Assembly (NCBI GenBank): GCA_964437705.1
Contig: CAYTHX010000001.1
Span: 18,698 to 82,697 of the forward strand
From: an uncultured Nitrososphaeria archaeon
Lineage (GTDB): Archaea > Thermoproteota > Nitrososphaeria > Geothermarchaeales > JDFR-13
Length of the DNA: 64,000 bases
Direction: 5' to 3'
Positions 44,497 to 64,000 of the stretch are shown here, piece after piece. A program made the translations under genes and the position numbers. The number at the start of each line of letters is the position of its first letter. The first letter of the stretch is position 1. Under the pieces are notes generated by a model. That model saw nothing but the letters and a program-made list of their open reading frames with translations. It made no database searches and was not told the DNA's origin.

Positions 44497-45750
44497 ATGC
44501 CACGATATAAATTTAAAGCTAGACCTTTTGAGGAAGTTACAAAGTTAATTCTTGATGCATTTGATAGTAGGTCTTCAAAAATTGTAGTTCCAGTTGTAGA
44601 TTCACTTGGCTATGTTTTAGCTGAGGATATAGTTTCAGATAGGGACCTTCCACCATATGACATTGCTTTTTACGATGGATACGCTGTTCGATCTGAGGAT
44701 ACAGCTGGAGCATCAGCATCAAATCCTATAAAGCTAAAATTAGTGGGCCGTGTTTTTAGCGAGAAAGATCATGGTAAGTTTAAAGTTGATAAAGGATGTG
44801 CTGTTTACGTTTCATCCAATTCACCGATTCCTGAAGGTGCTAATGCAATAGTAAGGATTGAATATACTGAGGAGAAAGATAATGAAGTATTAATAAAAAA
44901 GGAAGTTGACCCTGAGCAAGATATGATTCTGAAAGGAGATGATATACGTAAAGGAGAGTTGATACTAAGTGAAGGGCGTTTTATTAGACCTCAAGATATA
45001 GCATTATTACTGGAATTAGGTATACTTCGTATAAGGGTTTATAGAAAACCTAGAGTTGGAATTATGGCTATTGGTAATGAGCTTCTAGAGAGAATGAATA
45101 GGGGAATTGTATATCCAGATAACTATTCTGTATTTATCGCTAAGAGTTTAGAGTTGTTAGGGGCAGAACCACATCACTTAGGAATTGTTTCAGATAACAT
45201 TGATGAGATTAAAGCTAAGGTTCTAGATAATATTCATATATACGATATGATGTTACTTGTTGCAGGCGCTTCAATAGGACTAAATGATTATACAGGAAGA
45301 TCTTTAGAGGAGATTGGTGAAGTCATATTCCACGGAACAAATCTGAGTCCAGGAAAAGTTTCTGGACTCGTTAAGATAGAGAATAAACCTGTATTTCTAG
45401 TTCCTGGACATGTTGGATCTGCAATTTCATGTCTATACAATTTTGTTTACCCACTAATTTCTAAGATGTTTTTTGATTCAGCTAAGCTTTTACCTGTAGT
45501 TTACGCTGAATTAACTAGTGACGTAGACGTTAAGAAGGGTTCATATACATTTAGAACAGTAGCTTTAAAGTGGAAAGATGGAAAGATATATGCAACACCT
45601 CATATAAAGAAGCTGGGTGGCTCTACGCTCTTAACTATATTTACAGAAGCTCAAGGATACATCCTAGTTCCACCGAAAACGGAGGCCAAAAAAGGAGATA
45701 TCATTAAAGTTACACTATTCAGTAATATGGAGAGCCTCAATATATCCTAA
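44497..45750 (+). CDS. moeA: molybdopterin molybdotransferase MoeA
   Basis: G.VLAEDI, PPYD.A.YDGYAV, IPEGANA, G.EL, PGK, PG motifs. Confidence 0.9.
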   Translation: MPRYKFKARPFEEVTKLILDAFDSRSSKIVVPVVDSLGYVLAEDIVSDRDLPPYDIAFYDGYAVRSEDTAGASASNPIKLKLVGRVFSEKDHGKFKVDKGCAVYVSSNSPIPEGANAIVRIEYTEEKDNEVLIKKEVDPEQDMILKGDDIRKGELILSEGRFIRPQDIALLLELGILRIRVYRKPRVGIMAIGNELLERMNRGIVYPDNYSVFIAKSLELLGAEPHHLGIVSDNIDEIKAKVLDNIHIYDMMLLVAGASIGLNDYTGRSLEEIGEVIFHGTNLSPGKVSGLVKIENKPVFLVPGHVGSAISCLYNFVYPLISKMFFDSAKLLPVVYAELTSDVDVKKGSYTFRTVALKWKDGKIYATPHIKKLGGSTLLTIFTEAQGYILVPPKTEAKKGDIIKVTLFSNMESLNIS

Positions 45751-45783
45751 TTACTCTTAATAAACCTTTCTTTATTTTAAGAA

Positions 45784-46329
45784 TTGATGATGAAGCCCCT
45801 TATAATATGTGTTATAGGAAGAAAGGGGGCTGGTAAAACAACATTAATAGAAGCGTTAACTAGAGATCTGGTTAATTCTGGAATACGAGTCTCAGTTTTA
45901 AAACACATACATCATGATAACTTTGATGTCGATATTAGGGGAAAAGATACTTGGAGGTTCTCAAAAGCTGGGGCAGAGACTGTTATAGGAATGTCTAAGA
46001 CTAAGTTATTTATGGTTAAGCAGTTAAGCGACTGTTCAGCAAATAACTATCCAGATATGGATGTTATAAAGTTGATGGAGAGACTAATATGGAATTCAGA
46101 TATCATTTTTGTTGAAGGATTTAAATATAGCTTAGGGAAAAGCAGAGATATCCATAAGATTATCATAGTTAGAAATAATGATGAAATTAAGGAACTTTTA
46201 GAAATAGCTTCTGAACCTATACTAGGCATCTATACCTACCGTACAGAAGTAAAATCTGACTTAATCATAAGTTATGATGAGTTAAAGAGGAAAATTATGG
46301 AGTTACTAAAGCATAGAAAAAAGGCTTAA
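45784..46329 (+). CDS. mobB: molybdopterin-guanine dinucleotide biosynthesis protein MobB
   Basis: GAGKTT, LKH, GKDTWRF..AGA, VEGFK. Confidence 0.9.
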   Translation: MMMKPLIICVIGRKGAGKTTLIEALTRDLVNSGIRVSVLKHIHHDNFDVDIRGKDTWRFSKAGAETVIGMSKTKLFMVKQLSDCSANNYPDMDVIKLMERLIWNSDIIFVEGFKYSLGKSRDIHKIIIVRNNDEIKELLEIASEPILGIYTYRTEVKSDLIISYDELKRKIMELLKHRKKA

Positions 46330-46332
46330 TAA

Positions 46333-47949
46333 CTAAATTGCTTTTAAATATCTATCTATAGTTTCCTTTAACATTCTAAGTTCTAGTTGCTTTTTCTCTT
46401 CATCCTTATACTTCATAATTTCGTCAACTTTACTTATCACGAGCCTATTAGTCATTACATAATATACTTTCTCTCTTAAAGCGTATCTCCTATCGTAGAT
46501 TCCATACTTCTCTCTCAACTCTATTGATTTTTCAATTAAATCAATAGCTAACTTCGCTAATTGACTCCTAGTTAAAAACTTAGTTTCATAACTAATCCAT
46601 TGATGCCAAGATGGATTTGAAAGCCCCTCTACGTAATCCTCTAAACTCTTAAAGATCAGCTTATACCCAAATTTCTCTGGATAATCAAAGGCTAATGATC
46701 CAGGATCAAGAAGAATCATTGGTCCAAAAGCAAAATTTATAGTATTAAAGCCTTTATCTATTAAACAAATCTTTTCCCATACCTCTACAGTTCTATTTAT
46801 AGTTTCTAACGTTTCATTGGACAATCCAAGCATAAAAAATACTATCAAATGTATATTATCCCTGTATCGCCTACATATTTCAATAGTCTTAAATAACTCG
46901 GTGTTTGTATATTTTCTTCCATGAGCAATTCTAACATGCTCTACGCCAGATTCTGGAGATATAGTTAGTGTTAATGGAGTATCAATCTTCGACAACATAC
47001 TAAGATACTCTTCATTTGCGGGTTTAAATAACTCCATCGATAAATGTAGTAAAGGCACCTTTGCATCTCGAATTTCTCTAATTAATGTTTCATAGTACCT
47101 CCTACCATTCATTCTAGGATCTTGAAATAAGAAAACCATTTTTATTCCCTGCTCAGAAAGTTTTTGCATGTCTTCAGCTATTTTATCCGGTTTTCTAAAG
47201 GATGGTTTATCCCTATACAAATACTTCTTATATGAATATAGAGACCCTCCACATGATACACAGTTATATATACAGCCACGACAAATAGGTAAGCAGAAGT
47301 GAGGGGGCATATCCCTAGGGAAAAATGCTCTTTTAGGCTTAATTAAGTCTAGTCTCGTAAAATCAAACTGATTAATATCAACGTTTAGTTTTCTTGCCTC
47401 ACCTATCTCGATTTTTCCATCTTTATCCCTAACTGTTATGTTTGGACACGCACGGACTTCATTATATTTATCTAATATATTCATGAGGTTTAATAGAGGT
47501 ATCTCAGCTTCTCCTCTAACAACCGCATCTATAAACTTCATTTTCTTAATAATTTCAGTATGAAATATAGTAGCAGTTAATCCTCCTAAAATAACTATAG
47601 AATCTGGATGAAACTTTTTACATAATTTACAAATTTCAATTGCTCCCTGTGAATGTACAACCCAATGAAGACCAACTGCATAAACTCTAGCCTCCAATGT
47701 TTTTAGGTGTTTTTCTACATCGAAGAATTTATCGAAAACCATTCGGTCAGCAAGGTTATCTATAATAACACGATACCCGTTCTTATCAAGGTAATCAGCT
47801 ATACTAAACATTCCAATTGGGGGAATTATAAATTGATCAGTACTTTCTCTAACTGTATAGGCAATGGGACCTGGAAAAATTATTTTCTTTCTAAAATCAT
47901 AAATAGCTGGAGGATGGATTATTACGATATCAAGCATTTTAATCACCAA
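46333..47949 (-). CDS. cobalamin-binding radical SAM protein (resembles the Ta0216/TIGR04190 type)
   Basis: HPP..YDFR N-terminus, LHW.VHSQG, GG.TAT, RGEAE, RGC.YNC.SC, SPESG. Confidence 0.85.
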   Translation of the reverse strand: MVIKMLDIVIIHPPAIYDFRKKIIFPGPIAYTVRESTDQFIIPPIGMFSIADYLDKNGYRVIIDNLADRMVFDKFFDVEKHLKTLEARVYAVGLHWVVHSQGAIEICKLCKKFHPDSIVILGGLTATIFHTEIIKKMKFIDAVVRGEAEIPLLNLMNILDKYNEVRACPNITVRDKDGKIEIGEARKLNVDINQFDFTRLDLIKPKRAFFPRDMPPHFCLPICRGCIYNCVSCGGSLYSYKKYLYRDKPSFRKPDKIAEDMQKLSEQGIKMVFLFQDPRMNGRRYYETLIREIRDAKVPLLHLSMELFKPANEEYLSMLSKIDTPLTLTISPESGVEHVRIAHGRKYTNTELFKTIEICRRYRDNIHLIVFFMLGLSNETLETINRTVEVWEKICLIDKGFNTINFAFGPMILLDPGSLAFDYPEKFGYKLIFKSLEDYVEGLSNPSWHQWISYETKFLTRSQLAKLAIDLIEKSIELREKYGIYDRRYALREKVYYVMTNRLVISKVDEIMKYKDEEKKQLELRMLKETIDRYLKAI

Positions 47950-48074: not shown

Positions 48075-48803
48075 ATGATGAAAGATATAGAGAAAGTTAA
48101 ATCTCTTTTAATGCGTTCTCTTAAAGGACGAGAAAGAATGTACTCACTTCTAGGTAGGGTTTATGAAAAAGAAGTTGATAAAGATTTATTGAGTAATTTG
48201 CTTAATCAAAGAGAACATTTACTAAAACACAAATTAATTGGAGATGTAGACTCTAATGTTGAAGATGGATTCGAGGAATTATATGTTTACCTCAATAAGT
48301 TAGATAGTGGGAAGATAGATCAAGCCTTACTTGAGCTTGCAGTTGATTACGCAAGTTTATTTCTAGGAGTTAAGTATGCTCGTGAGAAAAAAGGAATTCC
48401 TCATCCGTCAGAATCTGTTTACCTCACTGGATATCTATATCAAGATGAAAGAGATCAAGTTTTAGATATGTATGTAGAAGAGGGACTTGTAAAATCTCCA
48501 GATTTCACAGAACCTGAGGATCATGTTGCGTTAGAAATGTATTTCATGGCACATTTATGTAGAAAAGCTATTAAGCAATTAGAGTCAGGAGAGCTAGAAA
48601 ATTTGAAGAAAACTCTCTATACTCAGAAGAAGTTTTTAACTGAACATATATTGAAGTGGATTCCTAAACTTGCTGATGATGTTATTCAAAATGCTGATAC
48701 TGAATTTTACAAAGCTTTTGGGAAAATAACTAGAGGATTTATAAGAATTGAGAAAGAGATTATTGAGAAACTTATAGACTACGCTAATCTACTGATTAAA
48801 TAA
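48075..48803 (+). CDS. TorD/DmsD-family molybdoenzyme chaperone
   Basis: DYASLF, PSESVY, EPEDHVALE, FL.EH...W. Confidence 0.9.
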   Translation: MMKDIEKVKSLLMRSLKGRERMYSLLGRVYEKEVDKDLLSNLLNQREHLLKHKLIGDVDSNVEDGFEELYVYLNKLDSGKIDQALLELAVDYASLFLGVKYAREKKGIPHPSESVYLTGYLYQDERDQVLDMYVEEGLVKSPDFTEPEDHVALEMYFMAHLCRKAIKQLESGELENLKKTLYTQKKFLTEHILKWIPKLADDVIQNADTEFYKAFGKITRGFIRIEKEIIEKLIDYANLLIK

Positions 48804-48876: not shown

Positions 48877-49746
48877 TTACTTTTTCTCTTTGGTTAGAAA
48901 TACGTCTCCAACGTTTACGTCTTTCTCTGTGGTGAAGACTCCTATAATCTTCTCTTTATAACCTTCCTTTTCAACTTTCAGTAGGTATTTATGATTCCAC
49001 TCTAAATCCGTAAACCAGAAGTCACCGAATTCATCGGTAGTTGCTTCGAATTTGCTCCCAGTATAAAGGTCTAGTGCGGTAATCTTAGCCCCGATAACTA
49101 CTTCCTTATCCTCTGGATCAACTATACAGCCACCTATAAATGGTTTTGGTAAGTTTAGGTAAAATACTCTTGGCTTAGTGTTATACTCTGGATGTAGTAC
49201 CTGTGCATCTTTAAGTAATTCTTTAATCTTTGGATCGTCTTCATCACCAAATATTATTGCTTCTGATGGACAGACATCATAGCATCTAGGACCATATTTC
49301 CAGTCTTTATCATCTAGTAGGTGTGCACAGAATGTACATTTCTGTGCAATACCTAATTCTTCATTAAAGTATATTGCGTTGTATGGACATGCATCCATAC
49401 AGAGTGGTTTTGAACCTACAGATTTACATCCATCACATTTATTTGGATCAATTAATACTATTCCATCTTCCCTCTTAACTATAGCATTTACCGGACAAGC
49501 CTTAACACAGGGTGGATTATCACAGTGCATGCATGGAATTGGGAAATATGTTACCTTAACTTTAGGTATAGAACCTCTTTCTACCTTGTCAACTCTCATC
49601 CAGAAATGGCCATATTCAGGCTGTGGCTTTGAATATGGACTCCAATCATTCTCTACAAACTCATCTTTACATGCAATTACACATGACATACATCCAGTGC
49701 ACTTACTTACATCAATAATCATAACTTTACCTGCCATATTCTCCAC
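48877..49746 (-). CDS. Fe-S beta subunit of pyrogallol transhydroxylase-like enzyme (BthL/RehS-like)
   Basis: CTGCMSC..ACKDE, CMHCDNPPC, KCTFCAH, plus the characteristic C-terminal beta domain (TDEFGDFWF). Confidence 0.88.
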   Translation of the reverse strand: MENMAGKVMIIDVSKCTGCMSCVIACKDEFVENDWSPYSKPQPEYGHFWMRVDKVERGSIPKVKVTYFPIPCMHCDNPPCVKACPVNAIVKREDGIVLIDPNKCDGCKSVGSKPLCMDACPYNAIYFNEELGIAQKCTFCAHLLDDKDWKYGPRCYDVCPSEAIIFGDEDDPKIKELLKDAQVLHPEYNTKPRVFYLNLPKPFIGGCIVDPEDKEVVIGAKITALDLYTGSKFEATTDEFGDFWFTDLEWNHKYLLKVEKEGYKEKIIGVFTTEKDVNVGDVFLTKEKK

Positions 49747-49749
49747 CTC

Positions 49750-55003: not shown

Positions 55004-55086
55004 ATACCCTAATCTTTTAATCATTCTTAAGATATTATGGCAAACTATTTAAATAAAATTAAGTAAATAGTTCTGGTTGAGTTTAG

Positions 55087-56469: not shown

Positions 56470-57648
56470 TTATATTACTGGTTCTGAAGAGTTATATGGT
56501 GGTGGATATACAGTATGGAATGTTAGTTTATGGGCTTGCCAAGGTTCTTCAGGTTTAGCTTTTTGCACTTGAGTAATTGCTGGTATAATATTCATTTGAC
56601 CATTCTCAAGGAAGAATATTTCACCATACCATGGAAAGTAAAACTTTTCTGATAATAGAAGCTCCCTAATTTTTGATGCTTCAAGACATCCACATTTTTC
56701 AACTACATGTTTTATTATGTACATACCTGCATATCCACTATAGGCTAGGAAGTCAAATGGTCTTTTATATTTATCCCAGAACTTAGTTGCTAATTTATTT
56801 AACGCCTTAGGATCGGGATGTTGCCGATCAGGCCAAAATTCGTTACATATAAATACACCTTCTGCATCTTCTCCCGACATTTCTATAAACGCTAAGGTTT
56901 GTATCGCTCCTATACCCAAAATAACTCTAGGATTAAGGCCCTCTTCTCTTATTTGTTTTATTAGCGATACACCATCCTCTAGATATGTAGAGATAACTAG
57001 AATATCTGGGTTTTGTATAATTAAGTCCTCTATGATATGCGTAAATACTGGTTTCTTATAGCTATATGCGTGAATCGAGATTATTTCCCAATCTGGATGT
57101 GATCTGCTTATAAGTCTTAAGAATCCACCTTTTATAAATGAATGTCCCATCAGCATGTTTTCATACATCGTAGCTATCTTAAGTGAACCCATTGGTTTTA
57201 TAGTTGGTATAACAATCTTCTCTAAGAACTCTATAGCTAGCTTGTTGAATATAAGAGAGTTTGTCGACATTCTAAAAACATATTTAAAACCTCTTTCTGT
57301 AATTTCGTCTGCTGAACATCCAATTGTTATGAAGGGCACTGCGTACTTCTCAGTTACTTTAATTACATTGACTGCTGCGGGACTTAAAAATGTGCCTCTT
57401 ATGAAATGTACATTATCTGTATTAACTAATTTCTCTGCTAGTTCACCGGCTTTTTCATGGTCCTCGCTAAAATCCTCAACTATCAACTCAATTTTTGCTC
57501 CTAATATCCCTCCATTTTCATTAATTTCTTCAACGGCCATTTGACAACCGAATAAGCCAGTTTCTCCATAATACTTAAAACGTCCACTAAGTGGTAAAAT
57601 AACCCCAACCTTCACAACTTGATTACTCAATTTTCCCGACATAACCAT
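56470..57648 (-). CDS. branched-chain/aromatic-type ABC substrate-binding protein lacking an evident signal peptide
   Basis: KVGVILPLSG...G, AVEEINE.GG.LG, FR motifs; no N-terminal hydrophobic segment. Confidence 0.8.
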   Translation of the reverse strand: MVMSGKLSNQVVKVGVILPLSGRFKYYGETGLFGCQMAVEEINENGGILGAKIELIVEDFSEDHEKAGELAEKLVNTDNVHFIRGTFLSPAAVNVIKVTEKYAVPFITIGCSADEITERGFKYVFRMSTNSLIFNKLAIEFLEKIVIPTIKPMGSLKIATMYENMLMGHSFIKGGFLRLISRSHPDWEIISIHAYSYKKPVFTHIIEDLIIQNPDILVISTYLEDGVSLIKQIREEGLNPRVILGIGAIQTLAFIEMSGEDAEGVFICNEFWPDRQHPDPKALNKLATKFWDKYKRPFDFLAYSGYAGMYIIKHVVEKCGCLEASKIRELLLSEKFYFPWYGEIFFLENGQMNIIPAITQVQKAKPEEPWQAHKLTFHTVYPPPYNSSEPVI

Positions 57649-57664: not shown

Positions 57665-58996
57665 TTAATAAACTAAGGCATTTGCAACTAACCTATGCAC
57701 ACCATACACTTTCCACTTAGCTTTATAATGATAAACCAAATCTTTAAGTTGCCTTTTACAATTAGAACATGCGGTAGCTACAATATCAGCTCCAGTTTTT
57801 TCGATCTGCTCCACCTTCTTCTTACCAGAAATTTTCATTCTCCACTCCAAGAAATTATTACTATACATTACAGCAATTCCACCACCACCACCACAACAAT
57901 AATTTAGCTCCCTATTTGGCTCCATTTCAATAAAATTTTGTACACTAGCTCTTAATAATCTTCTAGGCTCTTCAATTAACCCGATGATCCTCGTTAAAAA
58001 ACATGGATCATGATAAGTCACAAGTTCCTTATTTTTTGTGGGATCCAAATTTAATTTTCCTCTTCTTAAGTATTCATCTGTAAGCTCTAGTATACTTATT
58101 ATTTCATACTCTCTTGCTTCTGGAACAATATCCTTGAATACTCTAAGTGATAATGTAGCGTGTCCACATTCACCAACAAGTATTTTCTTAACTTCAAGTT
58201 TTCTAGCGATTTCAATATGACCTCTAATTATCTGGGATAAATAATCATCACTATAAAATACTCCATAGTTTGATGCATCGTTAAACTCTGAGCATAGAGT
58301 ATAGTCTACTCCAAGGTAATCTAGTACTTCAATTATACCCATCACATCTTCTAGAAGTCTAATATAATCGGATGCTACGTTTAGTAGTAGATATTCAGCA
58401 CCTTTCTTATCAACAGGAATCTCTATTTTAAACCCTCTTTTTTCAGCGATTTCCTCTTCCATAAACTTGACAATATCTAAGAAAGCTGCCCTATTCATAC
58501 TAATAACAGCGCCATACTTTATCTGTCTTAAAGCTCCATATTCATGTAGATCCCTAGGTGCAATATTTAATCTACTTAAGATATCCCTTACCTCTCTAAC
58601 TATTAAAGCATTATCAACTCTAAATGGACAGAACATACTACACCTTCTACACATATTACAACGATAAATATTCTCTGCTAAAGCCTCTATCTCTTCAGGA
58701 GTAATCTCATCTCCCACATTTAAGAAACCTAGAACTCCACGACCCTTTCCATGAATAATCTTCCTTAACAGATTAATTCTATAAAGTGGATTATATATTT
58801 CCTCACCAGTAGTTTCATATAAGAAACAGTGAGATACACATAAACCACATCTAGTACATAAATCTAGTGAAGTCTTAATAATTCTATACTTATGCTTAAA
58901 TTCTTTTCTTAGTAGATCCCGTATATTCTCAGCCGCCCTTTTATAATCTTCAGGTTTATTTGATAATGCTCTATATCCGTCTGATAAAAGCTTCAT
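57665..58996 (-). CDS. DsrK/HdrD-like Fe-S protein (second copy)
   Basis: CTRCGLC...C, CNMCRRC...CP, GECGH, HDPC, CCGGGGG, CSNC. Confidence 0.85.
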   Translation of the reverse strand: MKLLSDGYRALSNKPEDYKRAAENIRDLLRKEFKHKYRIIKTSLDLCTRCGLCVSHCFLYETTGEEIYNPLYRINLLRKIIHGKGRGVLGFLNVGDEITPEEIEALAENIYRCNMCRRCSMFCPFRVDNALIVREVRDILSRLNIAPRDLHEYGALRQIKYGAVISMNRAAFLDIVKFMEEEIAEKRGFKIEIPVDKKGAEYLLLNVASDYIRLLEDVMGIIEVLDYLGVDYTLCSEFNDASNYGVFYSDDYLSQIIRGHIEIARKLEVKKILVGECGHATLSLRVFKDIVPEAREYEIISILELTDEYLRRGKLNLDPTKNKELVTYHDPCFLTRIIGLIEEPRRLLRASVQNFIEMEPNRELNYCCGGGGGIAVMYSNNFLEWRMKISGKKKVEQIEKTGADIVATACSNCKRQLKDLVYHYKAKWKVYGVHRLVANALVY

Positions 58997-59730
58997 TACT
59001 TAATCCCTTTTCTCACAATCCATCCATTTACAAAATATCCAAATATATGGAAGCATCTGCTGAAGGGAAAGTATATTATATATAGTTGAGCTAGTATACA
59101 GTGTAGTATAAAGATAGGGTTTTCTGGTGGTTTTATTGGGTTTAGTGTTGCTAGACTATAAAAGTATTTCAATGCTTCTTCAATCGGAATTACGTTAAAT
59201 ATACGCATGTATACGCCAAGGGTTATTATAATTAGTAGTAAGAGAAGTTCAAAATAGTCTCTAAGTAAGGTAATCTCCCTTACTTCCTTAACTAATATTC
59301 TCCTCAATAGGATAAAAATTAGAATTATAGCGGCAATTATACCTAGAAATGTAGTCCATACGGTCAACCAATCTTCTATAAGTGGATATATTGTTCCTCT
59401 AAATATTAGAAAAGGGTCGGGTAATAGTAAAGAGCTAAATATGAAAGTTACTACATGAAGCAGAATAAAGAAAAAACTAATATGTAGAAAAAATATTGCT
59501 AGCCAGTAAACATCATCTGTTTTATATATTGTCCTAAATGTTACTAACTCTTTTACAATGTCTGCTGCTATACCCCTATTTGTTTTTGGAGTAGGAGATA
59601 AAGGCCACTTAATAACCATTGGTACTCTAAACCAAGATATTAATCGATAAATGCTAAATATTATGAAGAATAAAGCAGTTATGTATGGAAGGTAAAAGTA
59701 TAGGAAATCGAGGAGAACATTAGCCATCAT
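58996..59730 (-). CDS. NarI/DsrM-like diheme b membrane subunit (second copy)
   Basis: LH-x8-H, LLRR, LH...FPFSRCFH. Confidence 0.82.
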   Translation of the reverse strand: MMANVLLDFLYFYLPYITALFFIIFSIYRLISWFRVPMVIKWPLSPTPKTNRGIAADIVKELVTFRTIYKTDDVYWLAIFFLHISFFFILLHVVTFIFSSLLLPDPFLIFRGTIYPLIEDWLTVWTTFLGIIAAIILIFILLRRILVKEVREITLLRDYFELLLLLIIITLGVYMRIFNVIPIEEALKYFYSLATLNPIKPPENPIFILHCILAQLYIIYFPFSRCFHIFGYFVNGWIVRKGIK

Positions 59731-59735
59731 TCCAC

Positions 59736-61229
59736 CTATCTTCTTAAATTGTCTGCTACAAAGTTGATAGCATTGCCTACTAATTCGATCACCCCACCTA
59801 CCTTTACGTCCATATCATAGTGGATAAAATACTCATCATATGCAGATTTATCTATTGCACATATTAGTGCTAGATAATTTGCTCCAGTAGCTTTAATAGC
59901 ATCAATTTTTGGCTTAATAGCTTTTAACCTAAGTCTTAGAGTTTCTCCTGTTAGTAATCCACCACCAGCACCACAACATAAAGTTTTCTCCCTATTTACG
60001 TTTGGATCCATCTCTACGTAATTATTACAAACCTGCCTAATAACATATCTTGGTTCCTCAATTAAACCCATGACACGTGCAGGATTACATGAATCACTAA
60101 ATGTAACAACATACTTATCGTTTTTACTTTTATCAACGTCTAATCTCTTATGTTTAAAGAGATCAGCAACAAACTCCATAATATGGACAACTTTTGTTGC
60201 TGCTGCATTCTCAAATACCGTACCTGTAAATGGTGATTGTGGAACTTCTAATTTTTCAGCTAAATCTCCATTCATAGTAGCCATGAATGCTTGAACAACT
60301 CGATACATATGTCCACATTCACCACCCAATATCCATTTTACACCTAGCCTAACAGCTTCCTCATAAACCTTTCTATTAATTTTCTTCATATGCTCATAGT
60401 TCAGCCATGTACCGAAGTTTCCTCCTTCACTAGCCTTAGTACTTAAAGTATAGTCTAAACCAATATGATGAAAGAATTTGATAGCACCCTTAAATGTTTC
60501 CCAATGAGGACCTCCAGGTCTAAAGTCTGCTGAAGGTGGAACATATAAAACTTCAGCACCCTTCTTATTAATCGGTACCTTAACCTTTACACCAGTTTCC
60601 TCCTCAATTTCTTCCTCAAGTAGACTTACAGCATTTAATAATCCCCTGGGGGTCATACCTATGTGATTTCCAGTAACTTCACAATTAGCAATTGATACAG
60701 TTAATGAAGCAGGAGTTAAACCAATTGCTGATAATACTTCTCTAGAAGCCATTGTTATATCTGCATTATCTACACCATATGGACAAAAAACAGCACATCT
60801 TCTACACATAGAACATTGATAAGCATATATGTATAGTGTCCTAATATAATCTTCATTCAACTCGACATCCTTCCCACTAAGTTTATCAGCTAATCTACCC
60901 CACTTAGTAAAGTACTTTCTGTAGATATTTCTGAGTAAGTCTGATCTCTTTACAGGCATGTTATTAGGATCTAGTGTAGCGAGGAAATAATGGCATTTAT
61001 CCGCACATGCGCCACAATGAACACAGATATCCAAGTAAAGTCTAACGGACCTCCATCTCTTTAAGACCTTTGCAAGTTCCTTTAAAAATATCTCTTTCCA
61101 GTTAGGTGGTAAGTTTAAGTTTTGTAAATCCCACTCTCTAGGATATGGTAGATTAAGTGTTTGAGCAGTTTTTAGTAATGTTGGTTTTAATGCATACTCT
61201 TTACCTGGATGACTAAAATCTAACTTCAT
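59736..61229 (-). CDS. dsrK: DsrK (HmeD)-like Fe-S disulfide reductase subunit
   Basis: CVHCGACADKCH, YQCSMCRRC..FCPYG, SEGGNFG, GECGH, DSCN..R, CCGAGGG, CAID. Confidence 0.88.
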   Translation of the reverse strand: MKLDFSHPGKEYALKPTLLKTAQTLNLPYPREWDLQNLNLPPNWKEIFLKELAKVLKRWRSVRLYLDICVHCGACADKCHYFLATLDPNNMPVKRSDLLRNIYRKYFTKWGRLADKLSGKDVELNEDYIRTLYIYAYQCSMCRRCAVFCPYGVDNADITMASREVLSAIGLTPASLTVSIANCEVTGNHIGMTPRGLLNAVSLLEEEIEEETGVKVKVPINKKGAEVLYVPPSADFRPGGPHWETFKGAIKFFHHIGLDYTLSTKASEGGNFGTWLNYEHMKKINRKVYEEAVRLGVKWILGGECGHMYRVVQAFMATMNGDLAEKLEVPQSPFTGTVFENAAATKVVHIMEFVADLFKHKRLDVDKSKNDKYVVTFSDSCNPARVMGLIEEPRYVIRQVCNNYVEMDPNVNREKTLCCGAGGGLLTGETLRLRLKAIKPKIDAIKATGANYLALICAIDKSAYDEYFIHYDMDVKVGGVIELVGNAINFVADNLRR

Positions 61230-61348: not shown

Positions 61349-61684
61349 TTAACAGCCAGCAGCTGCTGCCTTTGGTAAACCAGCTAATTTAATAGCGTCT
61401 TCAGCAGGTCCCCTTGGGAATAACTCATAGAATCTTTCATTTGAAATCTTACATTTCTTTAGTATCATTGCATATGGTGGCCCAATATTAAACTTAGAGA
61501 AGTAGTCTCTCATATAATATAGTACCTTTAAGTATTCATCTTTATATTGCCTAAACTTCTCCCCAAGACCTATTCTCTCAGCTATGAATTCAGCTATCTC
61601 TTCATCCCATACTGTAGGATCTTCTAAATATCCATCTTCATCAAATGGTAACTTTTTACCACGGAATTCTATAATTTCAGTCAT
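61349..61684 (-). CDS. DsrC/TusE-family sulfur carrier with a single C-terminal Cys
   Basis: DEDGYL.D...W.EE.A, YELFP.GP...A.K.AGLPK; ends AAAAGC. Confidence 0.9.
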   Translation of the reverse strand: MTEIIEFRGKKLPFDEDGYLEDPTVWDEEIAEFIAERIGLGEKFRQYKDEYLKVLYYMRDYFSKFNIGPPYAMILKKCKISNERFYELFPRGPAEDAIKLAGLPKAAAAGC

Positions 61685-61860: not shown

Positions 61861-62045
61861 GATTACTCATATTTCTACATTATTTTCCTACGAAGAATAT
61901 AAACATCATATCTGGAAAATAATTTAGTCATTTATGTTAACATTCTGTTAATACTAGTTGATATATAATTGATAATGGTTAATAGGAAAAACAAACATTT
62001 TAATAACAAAATAATATTTAAAATAACTGAATGATTTAATATTTT

Positions 62046-62732
62046 ATGATGACTATACTTAAGACAGTTGAGTTAACTAAGAAGTTTGGTGAGCTAGAGG
62101 CAGTTAAAGATGTTAGCTTTGAGGTTGATAAAGGAGAGAGTGTGGGTATTATAGGTCCGAATGGAGCAGGTAAAACAACATTATTCAATGTAATAACTGG
62201 ATTTCTAAAACCCACCTCCGGTAAAGTAATTTATGATAATAAAGATGTTACTGGAATGAAGCCTCATAAGTTAGCTAGGTTAGGAATGATTAGAACTTTC
62301 CAGATACTTAAGGTCTTTAAGAACCTTTCTGTTTATGATAATATTCATGTAATTAGTGATAATGTTGATGAAATTCTAAAGGAGTTAGGTCTTTGGGAAA
62401 AAAGAGATTACTTAGCTGGTGATTTACCTCCAGGAGAGATGCGGATGTTGAATATCGGTATGGCACTTGCAACTAACCCAAAGCTGTTACTACTTGATGA
62501 GCCATTTTCAGGTTTAACTTTTAAGGAATCTACAGAGTTAAGTAGAGTTCTTGATAGAGTTAAGGAGATGGGTGTTACTATGGTGATTATAGAGCATAGG
62601 CTTAAGGAGTTATTTACTCAGGTTGATAGGGTTATTGTTTTGAATGCTGGTAGAATTATAAGTACCGGTACTCCTGAGGAAGTAGTTCAAGATGTTAGAG
62701 TTATCGAGGCTTATTTGGGTGTTGAAAAATGA
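62046..62732 (+). CDS. branched-chain-type ABC ATPase (LivG-like)
   Basis: GPNGAGKTT, RTFQ, LLLDEP, IEH, AYLG. Confidence 0.92.
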   Translation: MMTILKTVELTKKFGELEAVKDVSFEVDKGESVGIIGPNGAGKTTLFNVITGFLKPTSGKVIYDNKDVTGMKPHKLARLGMIRTFQILKVFKNLSVYDNIHVISDNVDEILKELGLWEKRDYLAGDLPPGEMRMLNIGMALATNPKLLLLDEPFSGLTFKESTELSRVLDRVKEMGVTMVIIEHRLKELFTQVDRVIVLNAGRIISTGTPEEVVQDVRVIEAYLGVEK

Positions 62733-63421
62733 GAATTCTAGAAGTTAGTAATTTAAAAGCGTATTATGGGAAAGCGCTAATTTTAAGGGGAATAAATTTA
62801 CATGTTGATAAAGGAGAGACTGTAGCGATTATAGGTCCGAATGGAGCAGGTAAAACAACATTATTTAGATCGATAATGGGTCTTGTTAAGACTGATGGTA
62901 CAATAAAGTTCATAGGTAGAGATATTACAAAGCTAAAGCCTTATGAGAGGAGTAGATTAGGAATTGCTGTATGTCCAGAGGGACGAAGACTATTTCCAGA
63001 CATGACTGTTGAGGATAATTTGAGAATAGCTGCTCGAGGTGGAGATATCGAAAAAAGACTTGAGGAAATATACGATCTTTTCCCTGAAATTGAAAGAAGA
63101 AGAAAACATTTAGCTAAGCATACTAGTGGTGGAGAGCAGCAGATGATTGCGATAGGTAGAGCGTTGATGGCGAGACCAAAGTTCTTAATGTTAGATGAGC
63201 CTTCAATGGGTTTAGCGCCGATCGTGTTACTTAGGCTTAGAAATGCCTTACAGAGAATTAAGGAGAGTATGGGTATAGAGATGCTCTTAATCGAACAAAA
63301 TGTAAAATTAGCTTTCGAACTCGCAGATAGGGTATATGTGATGGTTAAAGGGCAGATAACTAGGGAGGGAGATGTGGAGTCTATAAGAGAAGTAGAGAAA
63401 GAGTATTTCGAGCAAATTTAA
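62729..63421 (+). CDS. branched-chain-type ABC ATPase (LivF-like)
   Basis: PEGRRLF, SGGEQQM.AIGRALM, LDEPSMGLAP, EQN. Confidence 0.92.
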   Translation: MRILEVSNLKAYYGKALILRGINLHVDKGETVAIIGPNGAGKTTLFRSIMGLVKTDGTIKFIGRDITKLKPYERSRLGIAVCPEGRRLFPDMTVEDNLRIAARGGDIEKRLEEIYDLFPEIERRRKHLAKHTSGGEQQMIAIGRALMARPKFLMLDEPSMGLAPIVLLRLRNALQRIKESMGIEMLLIEQNVKLAFELADRVYVMVKGQITREGDVESIREVEKEYFEQI

Positions 63422-64000
63422 GTGCGTTTAGCTACAATTTTTGTTACAATTACAGATTTATATAAATCCTTTAGTTTCATCCAAATTCCTTCAGGGAAGA
63501 GTATAGCTAGAATTATCAGGATCATGTATAGGATGATATCGTCATTAATTGGTATGTATAGATAGGTTAACATTGGTACGAGTGCTTTTAACCACCAATG
63601 CTTAAGTAAATATACAATAATTGCTCCTATGACCGGTCCTATAAGCGTTCCTTGCCCACCTATAACTACAGATAAAATAATTAGTAGCATTAACGGTATA
63701 TCGAATAGGTCAGGGCAGGCAATAAGCCTATAGTGTACTATTGCTGCACCAGCTACTCCGGCAAAAAAGGAACTTATTGCAAAGGATATTACTTTATATA
63801 TTGTTGTGTCGATTCCTATAGATTCTGCAAGGTCTATATCATCTCTTATAGCCATAAATCTTAATCCAAGTTTACTATTAATTATAATTTGTAGAATAAT
63901 AACGGATATAGCCATAAGTATAAGGGAAAGGTAATATTTTTCTATTGTTGTAGGTGCTAATGCATTTTCAAAGCCTATTGAAAATCCTTCCTCACCACCA
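63418..64000 (-). CDS. branched-chain-type ABC permease (LivM-like), 5' part outside the window
   Basis: GGEEG upstream, S.LG..F.AIRDD...A.S.GI, VIGG.GT..GP.IGA. Confidence 0.9.
   Translation of the reverse strand, partial: GGEEGFSIGFENALAPTTIEKYYLSLILMAISVIILQIIINSKLGLRFMAIRDDIDLAESIGIDTTIYKVISFAISSFFAGVAGAAIVHYRLIACPDLFDIPLMLLIILSVVIGGQGTLIGPVIGAIIVYLLKHWWLKALVPMLTYLYIPINDDIILYMILIILAILFPEGIWMKLKDLYKSVIVTKIVAKRT

What the first reader, a model, noticed from the sequence alone, without database searches (positions are those of the whole stretch)
44497..64000. Redox island joining a transhydroxylase/resorcinol-hydroxylase-like Mo enzyme, a Rieske/cytochrome b pair and a duplicated DsrMK-DsrC module without dsrAB
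Seen: about 20 kb of contiguous genes for MoeA, MobB, a B12 radical SAM enzyme, TorD, an AthL/BthL-like pair, Rieske + cyt b, CGGC, two NarI/DsrM, two DsrK, DsrC/TusE and Liv-type ABC parts. Known: AthL/BthL homologues include the oxidative anaerobic hydroxylases RehLS (resorcinol) and DbhLS (3,5-dihydroxybenzoate), which need an external electron acceptor; Liv-family binding proteins often bind aromatic acids; DsrMK reduces DsrC di/trisulfides with quinol. Inference: a possibly undescribed archaeal pathway that imports an aromatic or heterocyclic substrate, hydroxylates it at Mo/W, and exchanges electrons with the quinone pool and a sulfur-carrier disulfide.
Basis: partly seen in the sequence, partly recalled or inferred. 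Interest (0 to 1): 0.85.

Follow-up and report, generated by a model that had tools for sequence, protein, structure and literature searches.

The report
Polyphenol genes interleaved with respiratory modules
The genes are all really there, but they look like several separately inherited modules packed side by side in one archaeal lineage (a polyphenol-degradation cluster, a Rieske/cytochrome b complex and a sulfite-reductase-less Dsr remnant) and not like one new pathway.

Summary
OBSERVATION: confirmed.

INTERPRETATION: partly supported.
- The Mo enzyme (MoA1/FeSb1) belongs to an uncharacterised, mostly archaeal sister clade of pyrogallol-phloroglucinol transhydroxylase.
- A true AthL/BthL orthologue lies 9-12 kb beyond the window's end (1107 bits to PDB 4v4c). 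Beside it are a Liv transporter, a CoA-transferase, a cyclase, an SDR, a thiolase and an enoyl-CoA hydratase. Together these resemble the known phloroglucinol pathway.
- So aromatic catabolism is well supported, but electron coupling to Rieske/cyt b and DsrMK is not. Five genomes that carry MoA1 homologues have no cyt b match. None of 80 DsrK2 loci holds Rieske, cyt b or the Mo enzyme. Each module stands alone in relatives.

DSR BLOCK: it is a dsrAB-less derivative of an archaeal dsrC-dsrMK-dsrMK-dsrAB cluster. Its DsrC has lost CysB and the PTGCV end, yet it is under strong purifying selection.

NOVELTY: moderate. The new points are archaeal members of a family that one survey listed as bacterial only, and a single-cysteine DsrC next to DsrMK.

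The parts
44497..46329 (+). MoeA and MobB (molybdenum cofactor insertion and guanylylation helpers)
   Evidence: Pfam MoeA_N/MoCF_biosynth/MoeA_C and MobB. MoeA/MobB homologues also flank the MoA1 orthologues in L027 and L028.
46333..47949 (-). B12-binding radical SAM protein, TIGR04190-like; no link to the rest shown
   Evidence: Pfam B12-binding + Radical_SAM. TIGR04190 scores 412 bits, below its cut-off of 500. It is not conserved next to MoA1 orthologues; only weak 22-26% hits appear in L054, L148 and L209.
48075..48803 (+). TorD/NarJ-family chaperone, probable maturation factor of MoA1
   Evidence: PF02613, E 1.5e-28. A TorD homologue lies beside 10 of 21 clade-B loci and 0 of 25 clade-A loci. 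Archaeal clade-B enzymes carry a conserved N-terminal extension of about 45 aa with no hydrophobic signal core.
48877..49746 (-). FeSb1: BthL-like iron-sulfur subunit (4Fe-4S dicluster domains plus a C-terminal beta-sandwich)
   Evidence: Fer4_11 and CarboxypepD_reg (residues 204-276). No signal peptide by eye. 56-78% identical to the partners of MoA1 orthologues, 48% to L039's.
49750..52491 (-). MoA1: Ser-ligated Mo/W-bisPGD catalytic subunit of an uncharacterised sister clade ('clade B') of pyrogallol-phloroglucinol transhydroxylase
   Evidence: 360 bits to 4v4c_A, against 1107 bits for the paralogue MoA2. FastTree places it in a 43-row clade, support 99. The equivalents of AthL His144, Asp174 and Ser175 are kept; the Tyr404 equivalent is kept in the multiple alignment but not in the pairwise one. 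No twin-arginine signal.
52667..55467 (+). Rieske protein, cytochrome b, 87-aa protein and CGGC protein: the only cyt b match found in the genome
   Evidence: Rieske: PF00355, and TIGR02694 at 101.6 bits against a cut-off of 95.65. It has an NRRTALK motif followed by a hydrophobic stretch, and CQHLGC / CPCHGG boxes. Cyt b: Cytochrom_B_N_2/Cytochrome_B/Cytochrom_B_C. G000 has one cyt b match. Orthologous Rieske + cyt b pairs (34-46%) stand alone in family f4.
55589..56416 (+). DsrM1: NarI-type dihaem cytochrome b, probably the displaced partner of DsrK2
   Evidence: NF038037 DsrM scores 135 bits, below its cut-off of 300. In L175 a 46% homologue directly precedes the 64% DsrK2 orthologue, and a DsrM1-type gene is found in 70 of 80 DsrK2 loci, upstream of DsrK2 in the rows I read.
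56470..57648 (-). LivK1: Liv-type ligand-binding protein without a signal or membrane anchor
   Evidence: Peripla_BP_6, E 1.8e-43. Its relatives in L031 and L033, and LivK2 of the same genome, have an N-terminal anchor followed by a linker stretch that LivK1 lacks; L031's and LivK2's hold a twin-arginine motif. The LivK1 frame has a stop just upstream.
57665..61229 (-). dsrK2-dsrM2-dsrK1: two HdrD-like catalytic subunits and a second NarI-type cytochrome b
   Evidence: DsrK2: NF045796, 546 bits against a cut-off of 400. DsrK1: 297 bits. DsrM2: 56 bits. Both DsrK have CCG domains. L174 has the same K2-M-K1 order followed by dsrA-dsrB. DsrK2 dN/dS against L173 is 0.046.
61349..61684 (-). DsrC/TusE-family protein with a single, C-terminal cysteine
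   Evidence: PF04358 and TIGR03342. The C-terminus is ...DAIKLAGLPKAAAAGC, whereas 14 of the other 16 homologues found in DsrK2-bearing loci end in ...AC(K/R)xAGxxKPTGCV. dN/dS against L173 is 0.032.
62046..64000 (.). LivG, LivF and the start of LivM. The transporter and the catabolic genes continue beyond the window (G000:C1:82115-97163).
   Evidence: ABC_tran, BCA_ABC_TP_C and BPD_transp_2. Downstream lie LivM, LivH, anchored LivK2, CoA-transferase III, cyclase PF04199, SDR, cupin, DUF35-type OB protein, SCP-x-type thiolase, MoA2 (AthL orthologue), FeSb2, enoyl-CoA hydratase and an MFS transporter.

Best explanation
The stretch is a lineage-specific mosaic of separately inherited modules, not one pathway. 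The host is a low-GC archaeon of the class that also holds the ammonia oxidisers. It carries an H4MPT Wood-Ljungdahl methyl branch and a Nuo-type complex. No terminal oxidase was found in the 90.6%-complete genome.

MODULE 1 is the 5' half of a trihydroxybenzene (polyphenol) catabolic supercluster that runs about 13 kb past the window's end.
- Uptake: phenolics enter through the Liv-type ABC system and/or the MFS carrier (inferred).
- Known step: the true AthL/BthL orthologue (MoA2/FeSb2, outside the window) isomerises pyrogallol to phloroglucinol. This is inferred from about 60% identity (by eye) to the solved enzyme and from kept catalytic residues.
- MoA1/FeSb1 (inside the window) is matured by its own TorD-like chaperone with MoeA and MobB. 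It probably carries out a related hydroxyl transfer or hydroxylation on another phenolic in the cytoplasm (inferred; substrate unknown).
- Downstream steps: the SDR, the cyclase-family hydrolase, the CoA-transferase, the enoyl-CoA hydratase and the thiolase/DUF35 pair take phloroglucinol to acetyl-CoA. This is inferred from enzyme families and from recurring synteny.

MODULE 2 is the only Rieske/cytochrome b complex found in the genome, a general quinol oxidase. Its acceptor is unknown.

MODULE 3 descends from an archaeal dsrC-dsrM-dsrK-dsrM-dsrK-dsrA-dsrB cluster.
- It has lost dsrAB, and dsrM1 has moved.
- Its DsrC has been remodelled to a single terminal cysteine.
- It is still under purifying selection. 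It most likely works as a quinol-linked reductase of a protein persulfide or mixed disulfide on that cysteine (inferred).

Modules 2 and 3 sit between parts of module 1. The truncated, anchor-less LivK1 next to dsrK1 looks like a scar of that rearrangement.
For: GENE IDENTITIES.

MoA2 IS THE AthL ORTHOLOGUE; MoA1 IS NOT
- MoA2 scores 1107 bits to 4v4c_A over its full length, with His144, Arg153, Asp174, Ser175 and Tyr404 kept. The residue roles are recalled from the structure paper.
- MoA1 scores only 360 bits and sits in a separate clade of 43 rows with support 99.
- In the multiple alignment clade B keeps His144 in 42/43 rows, Asp174 in 42/43, Ser175 in 43/43 and Tyr404 in 36/43.

CATABOLIC CONTEXT
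- Recurring synteny of MoA2-type genes with cyclase, SDR, cupin, CoA-transferase, enoyl-CoA hydratase or Liv genes is seen in L035, L038, L045 and L050. Thiolase is adjacent in L014, L016, L017 and L020.
- In L024 the closest MoA1 orthologue (69%) is contiguous with a second Mo pair, a cyclase, an SDR, a thiolase, an OB protein and a hydratase.
- The cyclase family and the SDR family are the families of dihydrophloroglucinol cyclohydrolase and phloroglucinol reductase (PMC10470551, passages read).

INDEPENDENCE OF THE MODULES
- 5 loci with at least 8.8 kb upstream of MoA1 orthologues hold no Rieske, cyt b or DsrM. Their only DsrK-like hit, in L027 and L028, has the TfrB-like domain make-up Fer2_3 + CCG where I scanned it, in L027.
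- 0 of 5 genomes holding MoA1 homologues have a cyt b match, and none has a close DsrK2: the best is 32% identity.
- Family f8: MoA1 homologues in 6/6 genomes, cyt b in 0/6.
- Family f4: Rieske + cyt b with none of the other island genes in about 20-kb loci.
- 0 of 80 DsrK2-centred metagenome loci hold Rieske, cyt b or MoA.

DSR ANCESTRY
- L174 reads K2-M-K1-dsrA-dsrB and L175 reads M1-K2.
- f9 genomes read dsrC-dsrB-dsrA-dsrM-dsrK facing dsrK-dsrM.
- No NIR_SIR domain in the genome. The DsrC C-terminus is altered in the window and in L173 only.
- dN/dS is 0.03-0.05, though dS is near saturation.

OTHER
- LivK1 lacks the anchor its relatives have.
- GC3 is 0.19-0.32 across all genes, so nothing points to a recent transfer.
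- Physiology: no COX1, cyt bd, plastocyanin or DsrE was found. NuoLMN is present. FwdABCD-type genes, Mtd and Ftr are present.
Against: - The packing is tight and is kept in at least one other sample's strain. A relative with 88% DsrK2 identity has the same LivG/DsrC/DsrK2 order (L173). MoA1 and the Rieske gene diverge from a 175-bp spacer. Two respiratory blocks inside one catabolic cluster could reflect selection for co-regulation.
- The genome shows no other obvious quinol sink, so the Rieske/cyt b and DsrMK modules need partners that I could not name.
- The SDR and the cyclase were not compared with characterised phloroglucinol-pathway enzymes. PDB, NCBIfam and source names gave only generic matches.
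- Many comparison loci are short (3-6 kb), so absence of neighbours there is weak evidence.
Clade B could contain a known oxidative hydroxylase.
- The genome is 90.6% complete, so the absences (dsrAB, oxidases) are provisional.
- The tree is FastTree only, with long-branch warnings.
Confidence: 0.6

Rival explanations
1. MoA1/FeSb1 is an oxidative hydroxylase (RehLS/DbhLS-like). Its electrons enter the membrane in one of two ways. In the first, a NarI-type DsrM reduces quinone at the cytoplasmic face. In the second, MoA1/FeSb1 is exported by hitch-hiking on the Tat-signal-bearing Rieske protein. That would resemble arsenite oxidase, or the haloarchaeal outward-facing nitrate reductase with its Rieske and cyt b genes (both precedents are recalled, not checked). 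Quinol is then re-oxidised by Rieske/cyt b or by DsrK acting on the DsrC-like cysteine.
For: - Adjacency, and a divergent 175-bp spacer between MoA1 and Rieske.
- The junctions are bridged in another run.
- The Rieske protein passes the AioB model's cut-off (101.6 against 95.65 bits) and has a twin-arginine motif.
- A TorD-family chaperone is present.
- dsrM1 lies 121 bp downstream of the Rieske-cyt b-CGGC genes on the same strand.
- No other quinol sink was found.
Against: - 0 of 5 genomes holding MoA1 homologues have any cyt b match.
- f8 has MoA1 in 6/6 genomes and cyt b in 0/6.
- No Rieske, cyt b or DsrM lies near 5 orthologous loci with long flanks.
- 0 of 80 DsrK2 loci carry the Mo enzyme or Rieske/cyt b.
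- The position of dsrM1 is explained by displacement from dsrK2 (L175).
- The N-terminal extension of MoA1 has no signal-like hydrophobic core, and FeSb1 has no signal.
- The DsrC cannot form an intramolecular disulfide or trisulfide.
Confidence: 0.17
2. The DsrMK-DsrC genes are a standard sulfite-reduction module, and dsrAB simply lies in the unassembled 9.4% of the genome.
For: - Completeness is 90.6%.
- DsrK2 passes the DsrK equivalog cut-off.
- The relatives L174 and f9 carry dsrAB beside the same genes.
Against: - No NIR_SIR match, and no first-look candidates at all, in 1.56 Mb.
- The place after dsrK1 where L174 has dsrAB is taken by LivK1.
- DsrC lacks CysB and the PTGCV end that 14 of the other 16 homologues in DsrK2-bearing loci keep. 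The altered end is conserved under purifying selection in L173.
Confidence: 0.08
3. MoA1/FeSb1 is not an aromatic enzyme at all. It is instead a reductase or oxidase for a small inorganic or S-/N-oxide substrate, like its DMSO/TMAO/biotin-sulfoxide reductase cousins, and it sits next to the polyphenol genes by chance.
For: - The best NCBIfam rows are bisC_fam, dmsA_ynfE and TorA, all far below their cut-offs.
- Clade B has no characterised member in my data.
- In L027 and L029 the orthologues sit near fumarate-reductase-like, aldehyde-oxidoreductase and nitroreductase genes, not near aromatic genes.
Against: - The best solved relative by far is the transhydroxylase: 360 bits against 224 for DMSO reductase.
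- The beta subunit has the BthL-type domain make-up.
- The equivalents of His144, Asp174, Ser175 and (in the multiple alignment) Tyr404 are kept across clade B.
- In L024 the closest orthologue is contiguous with the cyclase, SDR and thiolase set. L031 has an anchored Liv-type binding protein beside TorD-MoA-FeS.
Confidence: 0.1

Closest known systems
Pyrogallol-phloroglucinol transhydroxylase AthL/BthL of Pelobacter acidigallici (PDB 4v4c)
   Same: - Two-subunit architecture: a Ser-ligated Mo-bisPGD alpha subunit with no signal peptide (read by eye; an N-terminal Fe-S cluster motif was not looked for), and a beta subunit with 4Fe-4S dicluster domains plus a C-terminal beta-sandwich.
- The equivalents of His144, Asp174 and Ser175 are kept.
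- The paralogue MoA2, just outside the window, is a true orthologue at 1107 bits.
   Different: - MoA1 is in a sister clade (360 bits).
- MoA1 has a conserved N-terminal extension of about 45 aa and a dedicated TorD-like chaperone, which clade A lacks (0 of 25 loci).
- The host is an archaeon. A published survey counted 0 archaeal representatives among 285 RhL/PgtL hits (PMC10100899, Table 2).
Resorcinol hydroxylase RehLS and 3,5-dihydroxybenzoate hydroxylase DbhLS
   Same: Same enzyme family according to the literature (PMC10100899 groups RhL with PgtL). They are cytoplasmic and Ser-ligated, and they need an external electron acceptor.
   Different: I could not obtain their sequences, so their place relative to clade A and clade B is untested. 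No membrane partner is conserved next to clade-B genes.
Anaerobic phloroglucinol pathway (phloroglucinol reductase, dihydrophloroglucinol cyclohydrolase; Clostridium scatologenes, PMC10470551)
   Same: An SDR and a cyclase-family (PF04199) protein are encoded together next to the AthL orthologue. The same pair recurs in other loci.
   Different: The lower pathway here looks CoA-dependent: family III CoA-transferase, enoyl-CoA hydratase and thiolase/DUF35, closer to what is recalled for P. acidigallici. No BKACE-type triacetate lyase was seen in the cluster. Identity to the characterised enzymes was not measured.
Archaeal minimal DsrABC-DsrMK system
   Same: - DsrK2 passes the DsrK model.
- It is 64-65% identical to proteins labelled Ca. 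Methanodesulfokores and Thaumarchaeota.
- The K2-M-K1 order equals that of L174, and a duplicated MK occurs in f9 too.
   Different: - No dsrAB.
- DsrC has one cysteine and an Ala-rich end.
- dsrM1 is displaced to the other strand.
- An anchor-less Liv-type protein sits where dsrAB would be.
Rieske/cytochrome b complexes of Thermoproteota (SoxL/SoxN/SoxC type) and the arsenite oxidase small subunit AioB
   Same: - Rieske boxes with the disulfide cysteines.
- A twin-arginine motif plus an anchor.
- A long cyt b with N- and C-terminal domains.
- SoxC model E 3e-68, and the AioB model passed.
   Different: - No AioA: the genome's only Mo-bisPGD enzymes are MoA1, MoA2 and a formylmethanofuran dehydrogenase.
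- No terminal oxidase or blue copper protein was found.
- CGGC and the 87-aa genes follow cyt b, which the f4 loci do not show.

Membership tests
Pyrogallol-phloroglucinol transhydroxylase family (RhL/PgtL; AthL/BthL) | Serine ligand to Mo (AthL Ser175), preceded by Asp174 | tested here: met
   The PDSW motif aligns to AthL 173-176. Ser is present in 43/43 clade-B rows and Asp in 42/43. The residue roles are recalled from the structure paper, not read.
Pyrogallol-phloroglucinol transhydroxylase family (RhL/PgtL; AthL/BthL) | Substrate-site residues His144 and Tyr404 (roles recalled) | tested here: inconclusive
   His144 is kept. Tyr404 is Tyr in the MAFFT alignment (36/43 of clade B) but Ile in the HMMER pairwise alignment of a poorly aligned stretch. 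Arg153 varies even within clade A (9/26).
Pyrogallol-phloroglucinol transhydroxylase family (RhL/PgtL; AthL/BthL) | Beta subunit with ferredoxin-type clusters plus a C-terminal beta-sandwich domain | tested here: met
   Fer4_11 and other Fer4 models, and CarboxypepD_reg at residues 204-276.
Pyrogallol-phloroglucinol transhydroxylase family (RhL/PgtL; AthL/BthL) | Orthology with the characterised AthL (same clade) | tested here: not met
   MoA1 scores 360 bits against 1107 for MoA2. The two fall in separate clades with support 99-100 in a FastTree tree of 73 rows. MoA1 is a family member but not an AthL orthologue; MoA2 (outside the window) is.
Pyrogallol-phloroglucinol transhydroxylase family (RhL/PgtL; AthL/BthL) | Hydroxyl-transfer activity on trihydroxybenzenes | not testable with these tools
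   Needs an enzyme assay.
Oxidative hydroxylases RehLS / DbhLS | Sequence clade shared with RehL or DbhL | not tested
   No tool gave me these sequences, and none of the listed hits carries such a name.
DsrMK(JOP) [DsrC]-trisulfide reductase | DsrK with CCG domains reaching the curated DsrK score | tested here: met
   DsrK2: 546 bits against a cut-off of 400. DsrK1: 297 bits, below it. Both have CCG and Fer4_8 domains.
DsrMK(JOP) [DsrC]-trisulfide reductase | DsrM reaching the curated score | tested here: not met
   DsrM1 scores 135 bits and DsrM2 56 bits against a cut-off of 300. In alignment A1, His83, His93, His200, His218 and His239 of DsrM1 are invariant across 24 DsrM1-type sequences. 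Their role as haem ligands is not shown.
DsrMK(JOP) [DsrC]-trisulfide reductase | Partner DsrAB in the genome | tested here: not met
   PF01077 and TIGR02064 find nothing in G000, which is 90.6% complete.
DsrC proper | Two cysteines, CysB-X10-CysA, in a C-terminal ...PKPTGCV arm | tested here: not met
   The window ends ...DAIKLAGLPKAAAAGC. The CysB position is Ile and only a terminal Cys remains. 14 of the other 16 homologues compared keep the canonical ...KPTGCV arm.
TusE (tRNA thiolation sulfur relay) | Works with TusBCD/DsrEFH-type partners | tested here: not met
   No PF02635 (DsrE) match in the genome. The TusE equivalog model scores 58.8 bits against a cut-off of 191. TusA was not searched.
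Arsenite oxidase AioAB | AioB-type Rieske subunit together with an AioA catalytic subunit | tested here: not met
   The Rieske protein passes TIGR02694. The genome's PF00384 matches are only MoA1, MoA2 and FwdB/D. MoA1 matches the AioA model at 59 bits against a cut-off of 359.
Outward-facing Mo enzyme fed by Rieske/cyt b (haloarchaeal pNar type; recalled) | Twin-arginine signal on the catalytic subunit | tested here: not met
   There is no RR motif with a hydrophobic core in MoA1 or its closest orthologues. Export by hitch-hiking on the Rieske protein is not excluded.

The most novel reading that the evidence does not exclude
In this lineage the juxtaposition is functional. An archaeon in which no terminal oxidase was found oxidises phenolics with the clade-B Mo enzyme and feeds the electrons into a private quinone loop built from a NarI-type DsrM and the Rieske/cyt b complex. 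It disposes of them through DsrK onto the single terminal cysteine of a remodelled DsrC, as a persulfide or mixed disulfide. That would be a dsrAB-independent, DsrC-based terminal electron sink coupled to polyphenol oxidation.
Probability: 0.12. Interest if true: 0.85.

Novelty: new variant of a known kind. Interest (0 to 1): 0.45.

Why it matters
1. ARCHAEAL MEMBERS OF A 'BACTERIAL' FAMILY. A published census found no archaeal representatives of the transhydroxylase/resorcinol-hydroxylase family and dated the family to after land plants (PMC10100899). Here an archaeon whose sequence is held in runs labelled hydrothermal vent, sediment and marine metagenomes carries both a true AthL orthologue and a member of a mostly archaeal sister clade. 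Similar genes occur in loci labelled Nitrososphaerota, Bathyarchaeia, Methanomethylicota and Nezhaarchaeales. This widens who can degrade tannin- or phlorotannin-type phenolics without oxygen. It also makes the age and origin of the family an open, testable question.

2. A NEW CLADE TO CHARACTERISE. Clade B, with its own chaperone and N-terminal tail, is a defined target for enzymology.

3. A NATURAL EXPERIMENT ON DsrMK. A DsrMK pair kept under strong purifying selection beside a one-cysteine DsrC, with no dsrAB found, shows what DsrMK can do apart from sulfite reduction.

4. A CAUTION. A compact 'redox island' can be built by rearrangement, so adjacency alone does not show electron coupling.

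Tried and rejected
- Complex prediction on FeSb1 (alignment A2) with DsrM1 (alignment A1) gave no verdict: score 0.02 against a mark of 0.32. It counts neither for nor against binding.
- The look-up of sequencing runs listed no RNA holder, so co-expression could not be looked at.
- A search of 301 genomes of the class of G061, the genome that holds L044 (labelled Alphaproteobacteria), for close MoA1 homologues found 0 at E <= 1e-200. The context of the proteobacterial subclade of clade B (P0064, P0066 and others) therefore stays unknown.
- The treekit quick search did not finish in 288 s. I used FastTree instead, which carries long-branch warnings.
- Naming the SDR and the cyclase as phloroglucinol-pathway enzymes: PDB gave only generic SDRs, and metal-dependent, isatin and kynurenine hydrolases. 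NCBIfam gave nothing specific. The 120 best database relatives of the SDR carry only generic names.
- PDB search of LivK1 gave mainly branched-chain amino-acid binders and did not discriminate an aromatic ligand. LivK2 gave nothing at E <= 1e-10.
- The protein atlas gave no lead for the 849-aa protein upstream.
- Two literature searches were badly framed and useless. In one search the term 'athl' matched 'athlete'. In one search min_terms was too low.
- 'Not in print' rests on one search and one paper only. One search ('pyrogallol' + 'transhydroxylase' + 'archaeal') found 4 papers; I read passages of one of them, and its table counts no archaeal member. The Nitrososphaeria paper (PMC10833072) contains neither 'pyrogallol' nor 'molybd'.
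- Supplementary tables of PMC10833072, PMC10100899 and PMC10504309 were not open to me and may list such genes.
- Rejected, recent horizontal transfer of the island: GC3 is uniform.
- Rejected, a decaying Dsr relic: the frames are intact and dN/dS is 0.03-0.05.
- Rejected, an assembly chimera: the junctions are bridged in run X3.

Full report
WHAT IS THERE

The window is G000:C1:18698-82697 of a 1.56-Mb genome with 34% GC, in 33 contigs and 90.6% complete.
- MoeA, MobB, a B12-binding radical SAM protein and a TorD/NarJ-family chaperone.
- A ferredoxin-type subunit with a C-terminal CarboxypepD_reg domain (FeSb1) and a 913-aa Mo-bisPGD subunit (MoA1).
- A Rieske protein, a 498-aa cytochrome b, an 87-aa protein with hydrophobic stretches (by eye) and a CGGC protein.
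- Two NarI/DsrM-type cytochromes b, two DsrK/HdrD-type proteins and a DsrC/TusE-family protein.
- Liv-type ABC parts.

The transcription units I read from strand and spacing are:
- moeA-mobB (+).
- The radical SAM gene (-).
- torD (+).
- MoA1-FeSb1 (-).
- Rieske-cyt b-orf87-CGGC (+), followed after 121 bp by dsrM1 (+).
- dsrC-dsrK2-dsrM2-dsrK1-livK1 (-).
- livGF (+).

Contigs from another public run (X3, a different study, with 1-33 base differences per piece) bridge every junction between the modules. The order is therefore real in nature and not a binning or assembly artefact.

MoA1's best solved relative is the large subunit of pyrogallol-phloroglucinol transhydroxylase: 4v4c, E 3e-106 and 360 bits, against 224 bits for DMSO reductase. 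FeSb1 has the domain make-up of the small subunit.

Reading on past the window's end (L001 = C1:80000-99999) changes the picture. After livM, livH and a membrane-anchored livK2 come:
- a family III CoA-transferase, a cyclase-family protein (PF04199), an SDR and a cupin;
- a DUF35-type OB protein and an SCP-x-type thiolase;
- a second Mo subunit (MoA2, 864 aa) with its FeS partner;
- an enoyl-CoA hydratase and an MFS transporter.

MoA2 matches 4v4c at 1107 bits over its whole length. It keeps the residues I recall as the Mo ligand and substrate site: His144, Arg153, Asp174, Ser175 and Tyr404. MoA2, not MoA1, is the AthL orthologue.

The paper that defined the anaerobic phloroglucinol pathway shows that phloroglucinol reductase is an SDR. 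It also shows that dihydrophloroglucinol cyclohydrolase belongs to the 'cyclase' family (PMC10470551, passages read).

Homologues of these neighbours recur around MoA2-type genes in other archaea and bacteria:
- L035: hydratase, cyclase, SDR and CoA-transferase.
- L038: Liv genes, SDR, cupin and cyclase.
- L045: cyclase and Liv genes between two Mo pairs.
- L050: cupin and SDR.
- L014, L016, L017 and L020: thiolase.

I therefore read the region from TorD to the MFS gene as one trihydroxybenzene catabolic supercluster. The assignment of the SDR and the cyclase rests on family and synteny only. PDB, NCBIfam and database names gave nothing specific.

WHERE MoA1 BELONGS

A FastTree tree of 73 homologues splits them in two.
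- Clade A has 26 rows and support 100. It holds MoA2 and the Clostridiales, Desulfofustis, Syntrophorhabdaceae and proteobacterial sequences.
- Clade B has 43 rows and support 99. It holds MoA1.

Clade B is mostly archaeal: loci labelled Nitrososphaerota, Bathyarchaeia and Methanomethylicota, and family f8. It also has a nested proteobacterial group and basal Bacillota. The tree carries long-branch warnings, and the slower search did not finish.

In a MAFFT alignment clade B keeps the His144 equivalent in 42/43 rows, Asp174 in 42/43, Ser175 in 43/43 and Tyr404 in 36/43. The pairwise HMMER alignment had put Ile at 404 in MoA1, so that position is uncertain. Arg153 varies even in clade A.

Archaeal clade-B proteins share an N-terminal extension of about 45 residues without a hydrophobic signal core. 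A TorD-family gene lies beside 10 of 21 clade-B loci and 0 of 25 clade-A loci. I read the extension as a chaperone-binding tail of a cytoplasmic enzyme, as is recalled for NarG and NarJ.

The closest MoA1 orthologue (L024, 69%) is contiguous with a second clade-B pair and with the cyclase, SDR, thiolase, OB protein and hydratase. L031 has an anchored Liv-type binding protein next to TorD-MoA-FeS. Both tie clade B to the same metabolism.

I could not obtain RehL or DbhL sequences. Whether clade B contains a known oxidative hydroxylase is open.

ARE THE MODULES COUPLED?

- Five loci with 8.8-10 kb upstream of MoA1 orthologues (L023, L027-L030), and several with long downstream flanks, hold FeS, TorD, MoeA and MobB. 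They hold no Rieske, cyt b or DsrM.
- The only DsrK-like hit there is 25-27% identical, in L027 and L028. L027's has the domain make-up Fer2_3 + CCG, which I read as a TfrB-like protein, and it sits beside a fumarate-reductase-type flavoprotein.
- 0 of the 5 genomes searched that hold MoA1 homologues (G062-G065 at 64-69% identity, G021 at about 55%) have a cyt b match at E <= 1e-10. None has a close DsrK2: the best full-length match is 32%.
- In family f8, 6 of 6 genomes have MoA1 homologues and 0 of 6 have cyt b.
- The nearest Rieske + cyt b pairs (34-46% identity, family f4, 5 loci of about 20 kb) have none of the other island genes nearby.
- Of 80 metagenome loci centred on DsrK2 relatives, none holds Rieske, cyt b or a MoA-type gene. 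Many of those loci are short.
- In the window's own family, 0 of 13 other genomes have MoA1 or DsrK2 homologues at the thresholds used.

The joint arrangement is therefore known only from this population and a close relative. That relative is L173, with 88% DsrK2 identity and the same livG / dsrC-dsrK2 order. GC3 is even across the region, at 0.19-0.32, so nothing marks a recent import.

THE Dsr BLOCK

DsrK2 passes NCBI's DsrK model: 546 bits against a cut-off of 400. It is 50-53% identical to bacterial DsrK and 64-65% to proteins labelled Ca. Methanodesulfokores and Thaumarchaeota.

Relatives show the ancestry:
- L175 reads dsrM1-type then dsrK2.
- L174 reads dsrK2-dsrM-dsrK1-dsrA-dsrB.
- Three f9 genomes read dsrC-dsrB-dsrA-dsrM-dsrK facing dsrK-dsrM.

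In the window dsrAB is gone and dsrM1 sits inverted 3.3 kb away. The gene after dsrK1 is a Liv-type binding protein. It lacks the N-terminal membrane anchor and linker stretch that its relatives and LivK2 have, and a stop lies just upstream of its start. I take this as a scar of the Dsr block landing inside the liv/aromatic cluster.

No NIR_SIR domain or dsrA match exists anywhere in the genome as held.

The DsrC is altered. 14 of the other 16 homologues found in the DsrK2-bearing loci end in the canonical two-cysteine arm ...KPTGCV. The exceptions are L173's protein and the second L204 copy. The window's protein and L173's end in DAIKLAGLPKAAAAGC, with Ile at the CysB position and a single terminal Cys.

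Even so, dN/dS between the window and L173 is 0.046 for DsrK2 and 0.032 for DsrC. dS is about 1.5, so these are rough values. The module is in use.

It cannot cycle a CysA-CysB trisulfide. A TusE-type relay is also unlikely, because no DsrE-family partner was found. I infer a quinol-linked reduction of a persulfide or mixed disulfide on the terminal cysteine. This is inference.

A published analysis notes sporadic DsrMK without DsrAB in bacteria: 7 of 74 assemblies in one clade (PMC10504309, passages read). Another reports dsrAB only in some non-ammonia-oxidising families of this class (PMC10833072, passages read).

PHYSIOLOGICAL FRAME
- The genome has NuoL/M/N-type genes.
- It has an H4MPT methyl branch: FwdA/B-D/C, Mtd and Ftr on C24.
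- Its only Mo-bisPGD enzymes are MoA1, MoA2 and FwdB/D.
- I found no haem-copper oxidase, cytochrome bd or plastocyanin-type protein. By contrast 11 of 13 genomes of its family and 6 of 6 of f4 have COX1.
- The Rieske/cyt b complex is the only cyt b match found. Its acceptor is unknown.

In arsenite oxidase (recalled) the Rieske subunit's Tat signal carries the signal-less Mo subunit out of the cell, so a hitch-hiking variant cannot be excluded here. The one complex prediction I ran (FeSb1 with DsrM1) gave no verdict and is not evidence either way.

COMPARISON AND NOVELTY

The parts are known kinds: a transhydroxylase-family enzyme, a phloroglucinol-type pathway, a Rieske/cyt b complex and DsrMK/DsrC. 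Three things are new or little described.
1. Archaeal members of the RhL/PgtL family. A census listed 285 hits with 0 archaeal representatives, and the family was argued to post-date land plants (PMC10100899, Table 2 and passages). My one targeted literature search found 4 papers; I read passages of that one, and its table counts no archaeal member.
2. A distinct, mainly archaeal clade B with its own chaperone and tail.
3. A one-cysteine DsrC beside a duplicated DsrMK, with no dsrAB found and under purifying selection.

The 'redox island' as one pathway is not supported.

VERDICT

Confidence in the mosaic reading is 0.6, in the integrated respiratory reading about 0.17, in a hidden dsrAB about 0.08, and in a non-aromatic role for MoA1 about 0.1.

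Noticed in passing
window 36518-36732: Four CRISPR direct repeats (Rfam CRISPR-DR45, 37.4 bits each) spaced 63-64 bp apart. The ORFs at about 14.5-25.4 kb upstream were not examined for cas genes.
   Followed up: no
window 409-1674 (-): This is the only UbiD-family decarboxylase match in the genome (E 4e-43). It could be a quinone-biosynthesis enzyme or a gallate/phenolic-acid decarboxylase feeding the pyrogallol pathway. It lies 43 kb from the cluster.
   Followed up: partly
window 41604-44153 (-): An 849-aa ORF between the thioredoxin reductase gene and moeA has no Pfam or NCBIfam match. The protein atlas gives only weak, unnamed archaeal look-alikes at 0.76.
   Followed up: partly
window 39979-41556 (-): A PadR-family regulator and a thioredoxin-disulfide reductase (TIGR01292, 404 bits, above its cut-off) lie just upstream of the finding. 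A thiol-redox enzyme near the DsrK/DsrC genes may or may not be related to them.
   Followed up: no
window 56470-57648 (-): The Liv-type binding protein is encoded 16 bp after dsrK1. It has no signal or membrane anchor, unlike LivK2 and the homologues in L031 and L033. It is either a cytoplasmic ligand-binding protein or a truncated remnant.
   Followed up: partly
G000:C24:1042-7170 (L253): A formylmethanofuran dehydrogenase gene set (FwdC-like GXGXG, FwdA-like amidohydrolase, fused FwdB/D), Mtd and Ftr form an H4MPT Wood-Ljungdahl methyl branch. No terminal oxidase was found in this genome.
   Followed up: partly
L004 (G039:C25) and L010 (G027:C8): MoA1 homologues in two family-f8 genomes have 1 and 2 in-frame TGA codons inside the match. 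These could be selenocysteine, frameshifts or broken genes.
   Followed up: no
L024:2-7197: One MAG carries two clade-B Mo/FeS pairs in tandem (69% and 54% identical to MoA1), directly followed by the cyclase-SDR-thiolase set. This suggests several hydroxyl-transfer steps in one pathway.
   Followed up: no
window 3153-7631 (+): A 1492-aa ORF that I did not examine.
   Followed up: no
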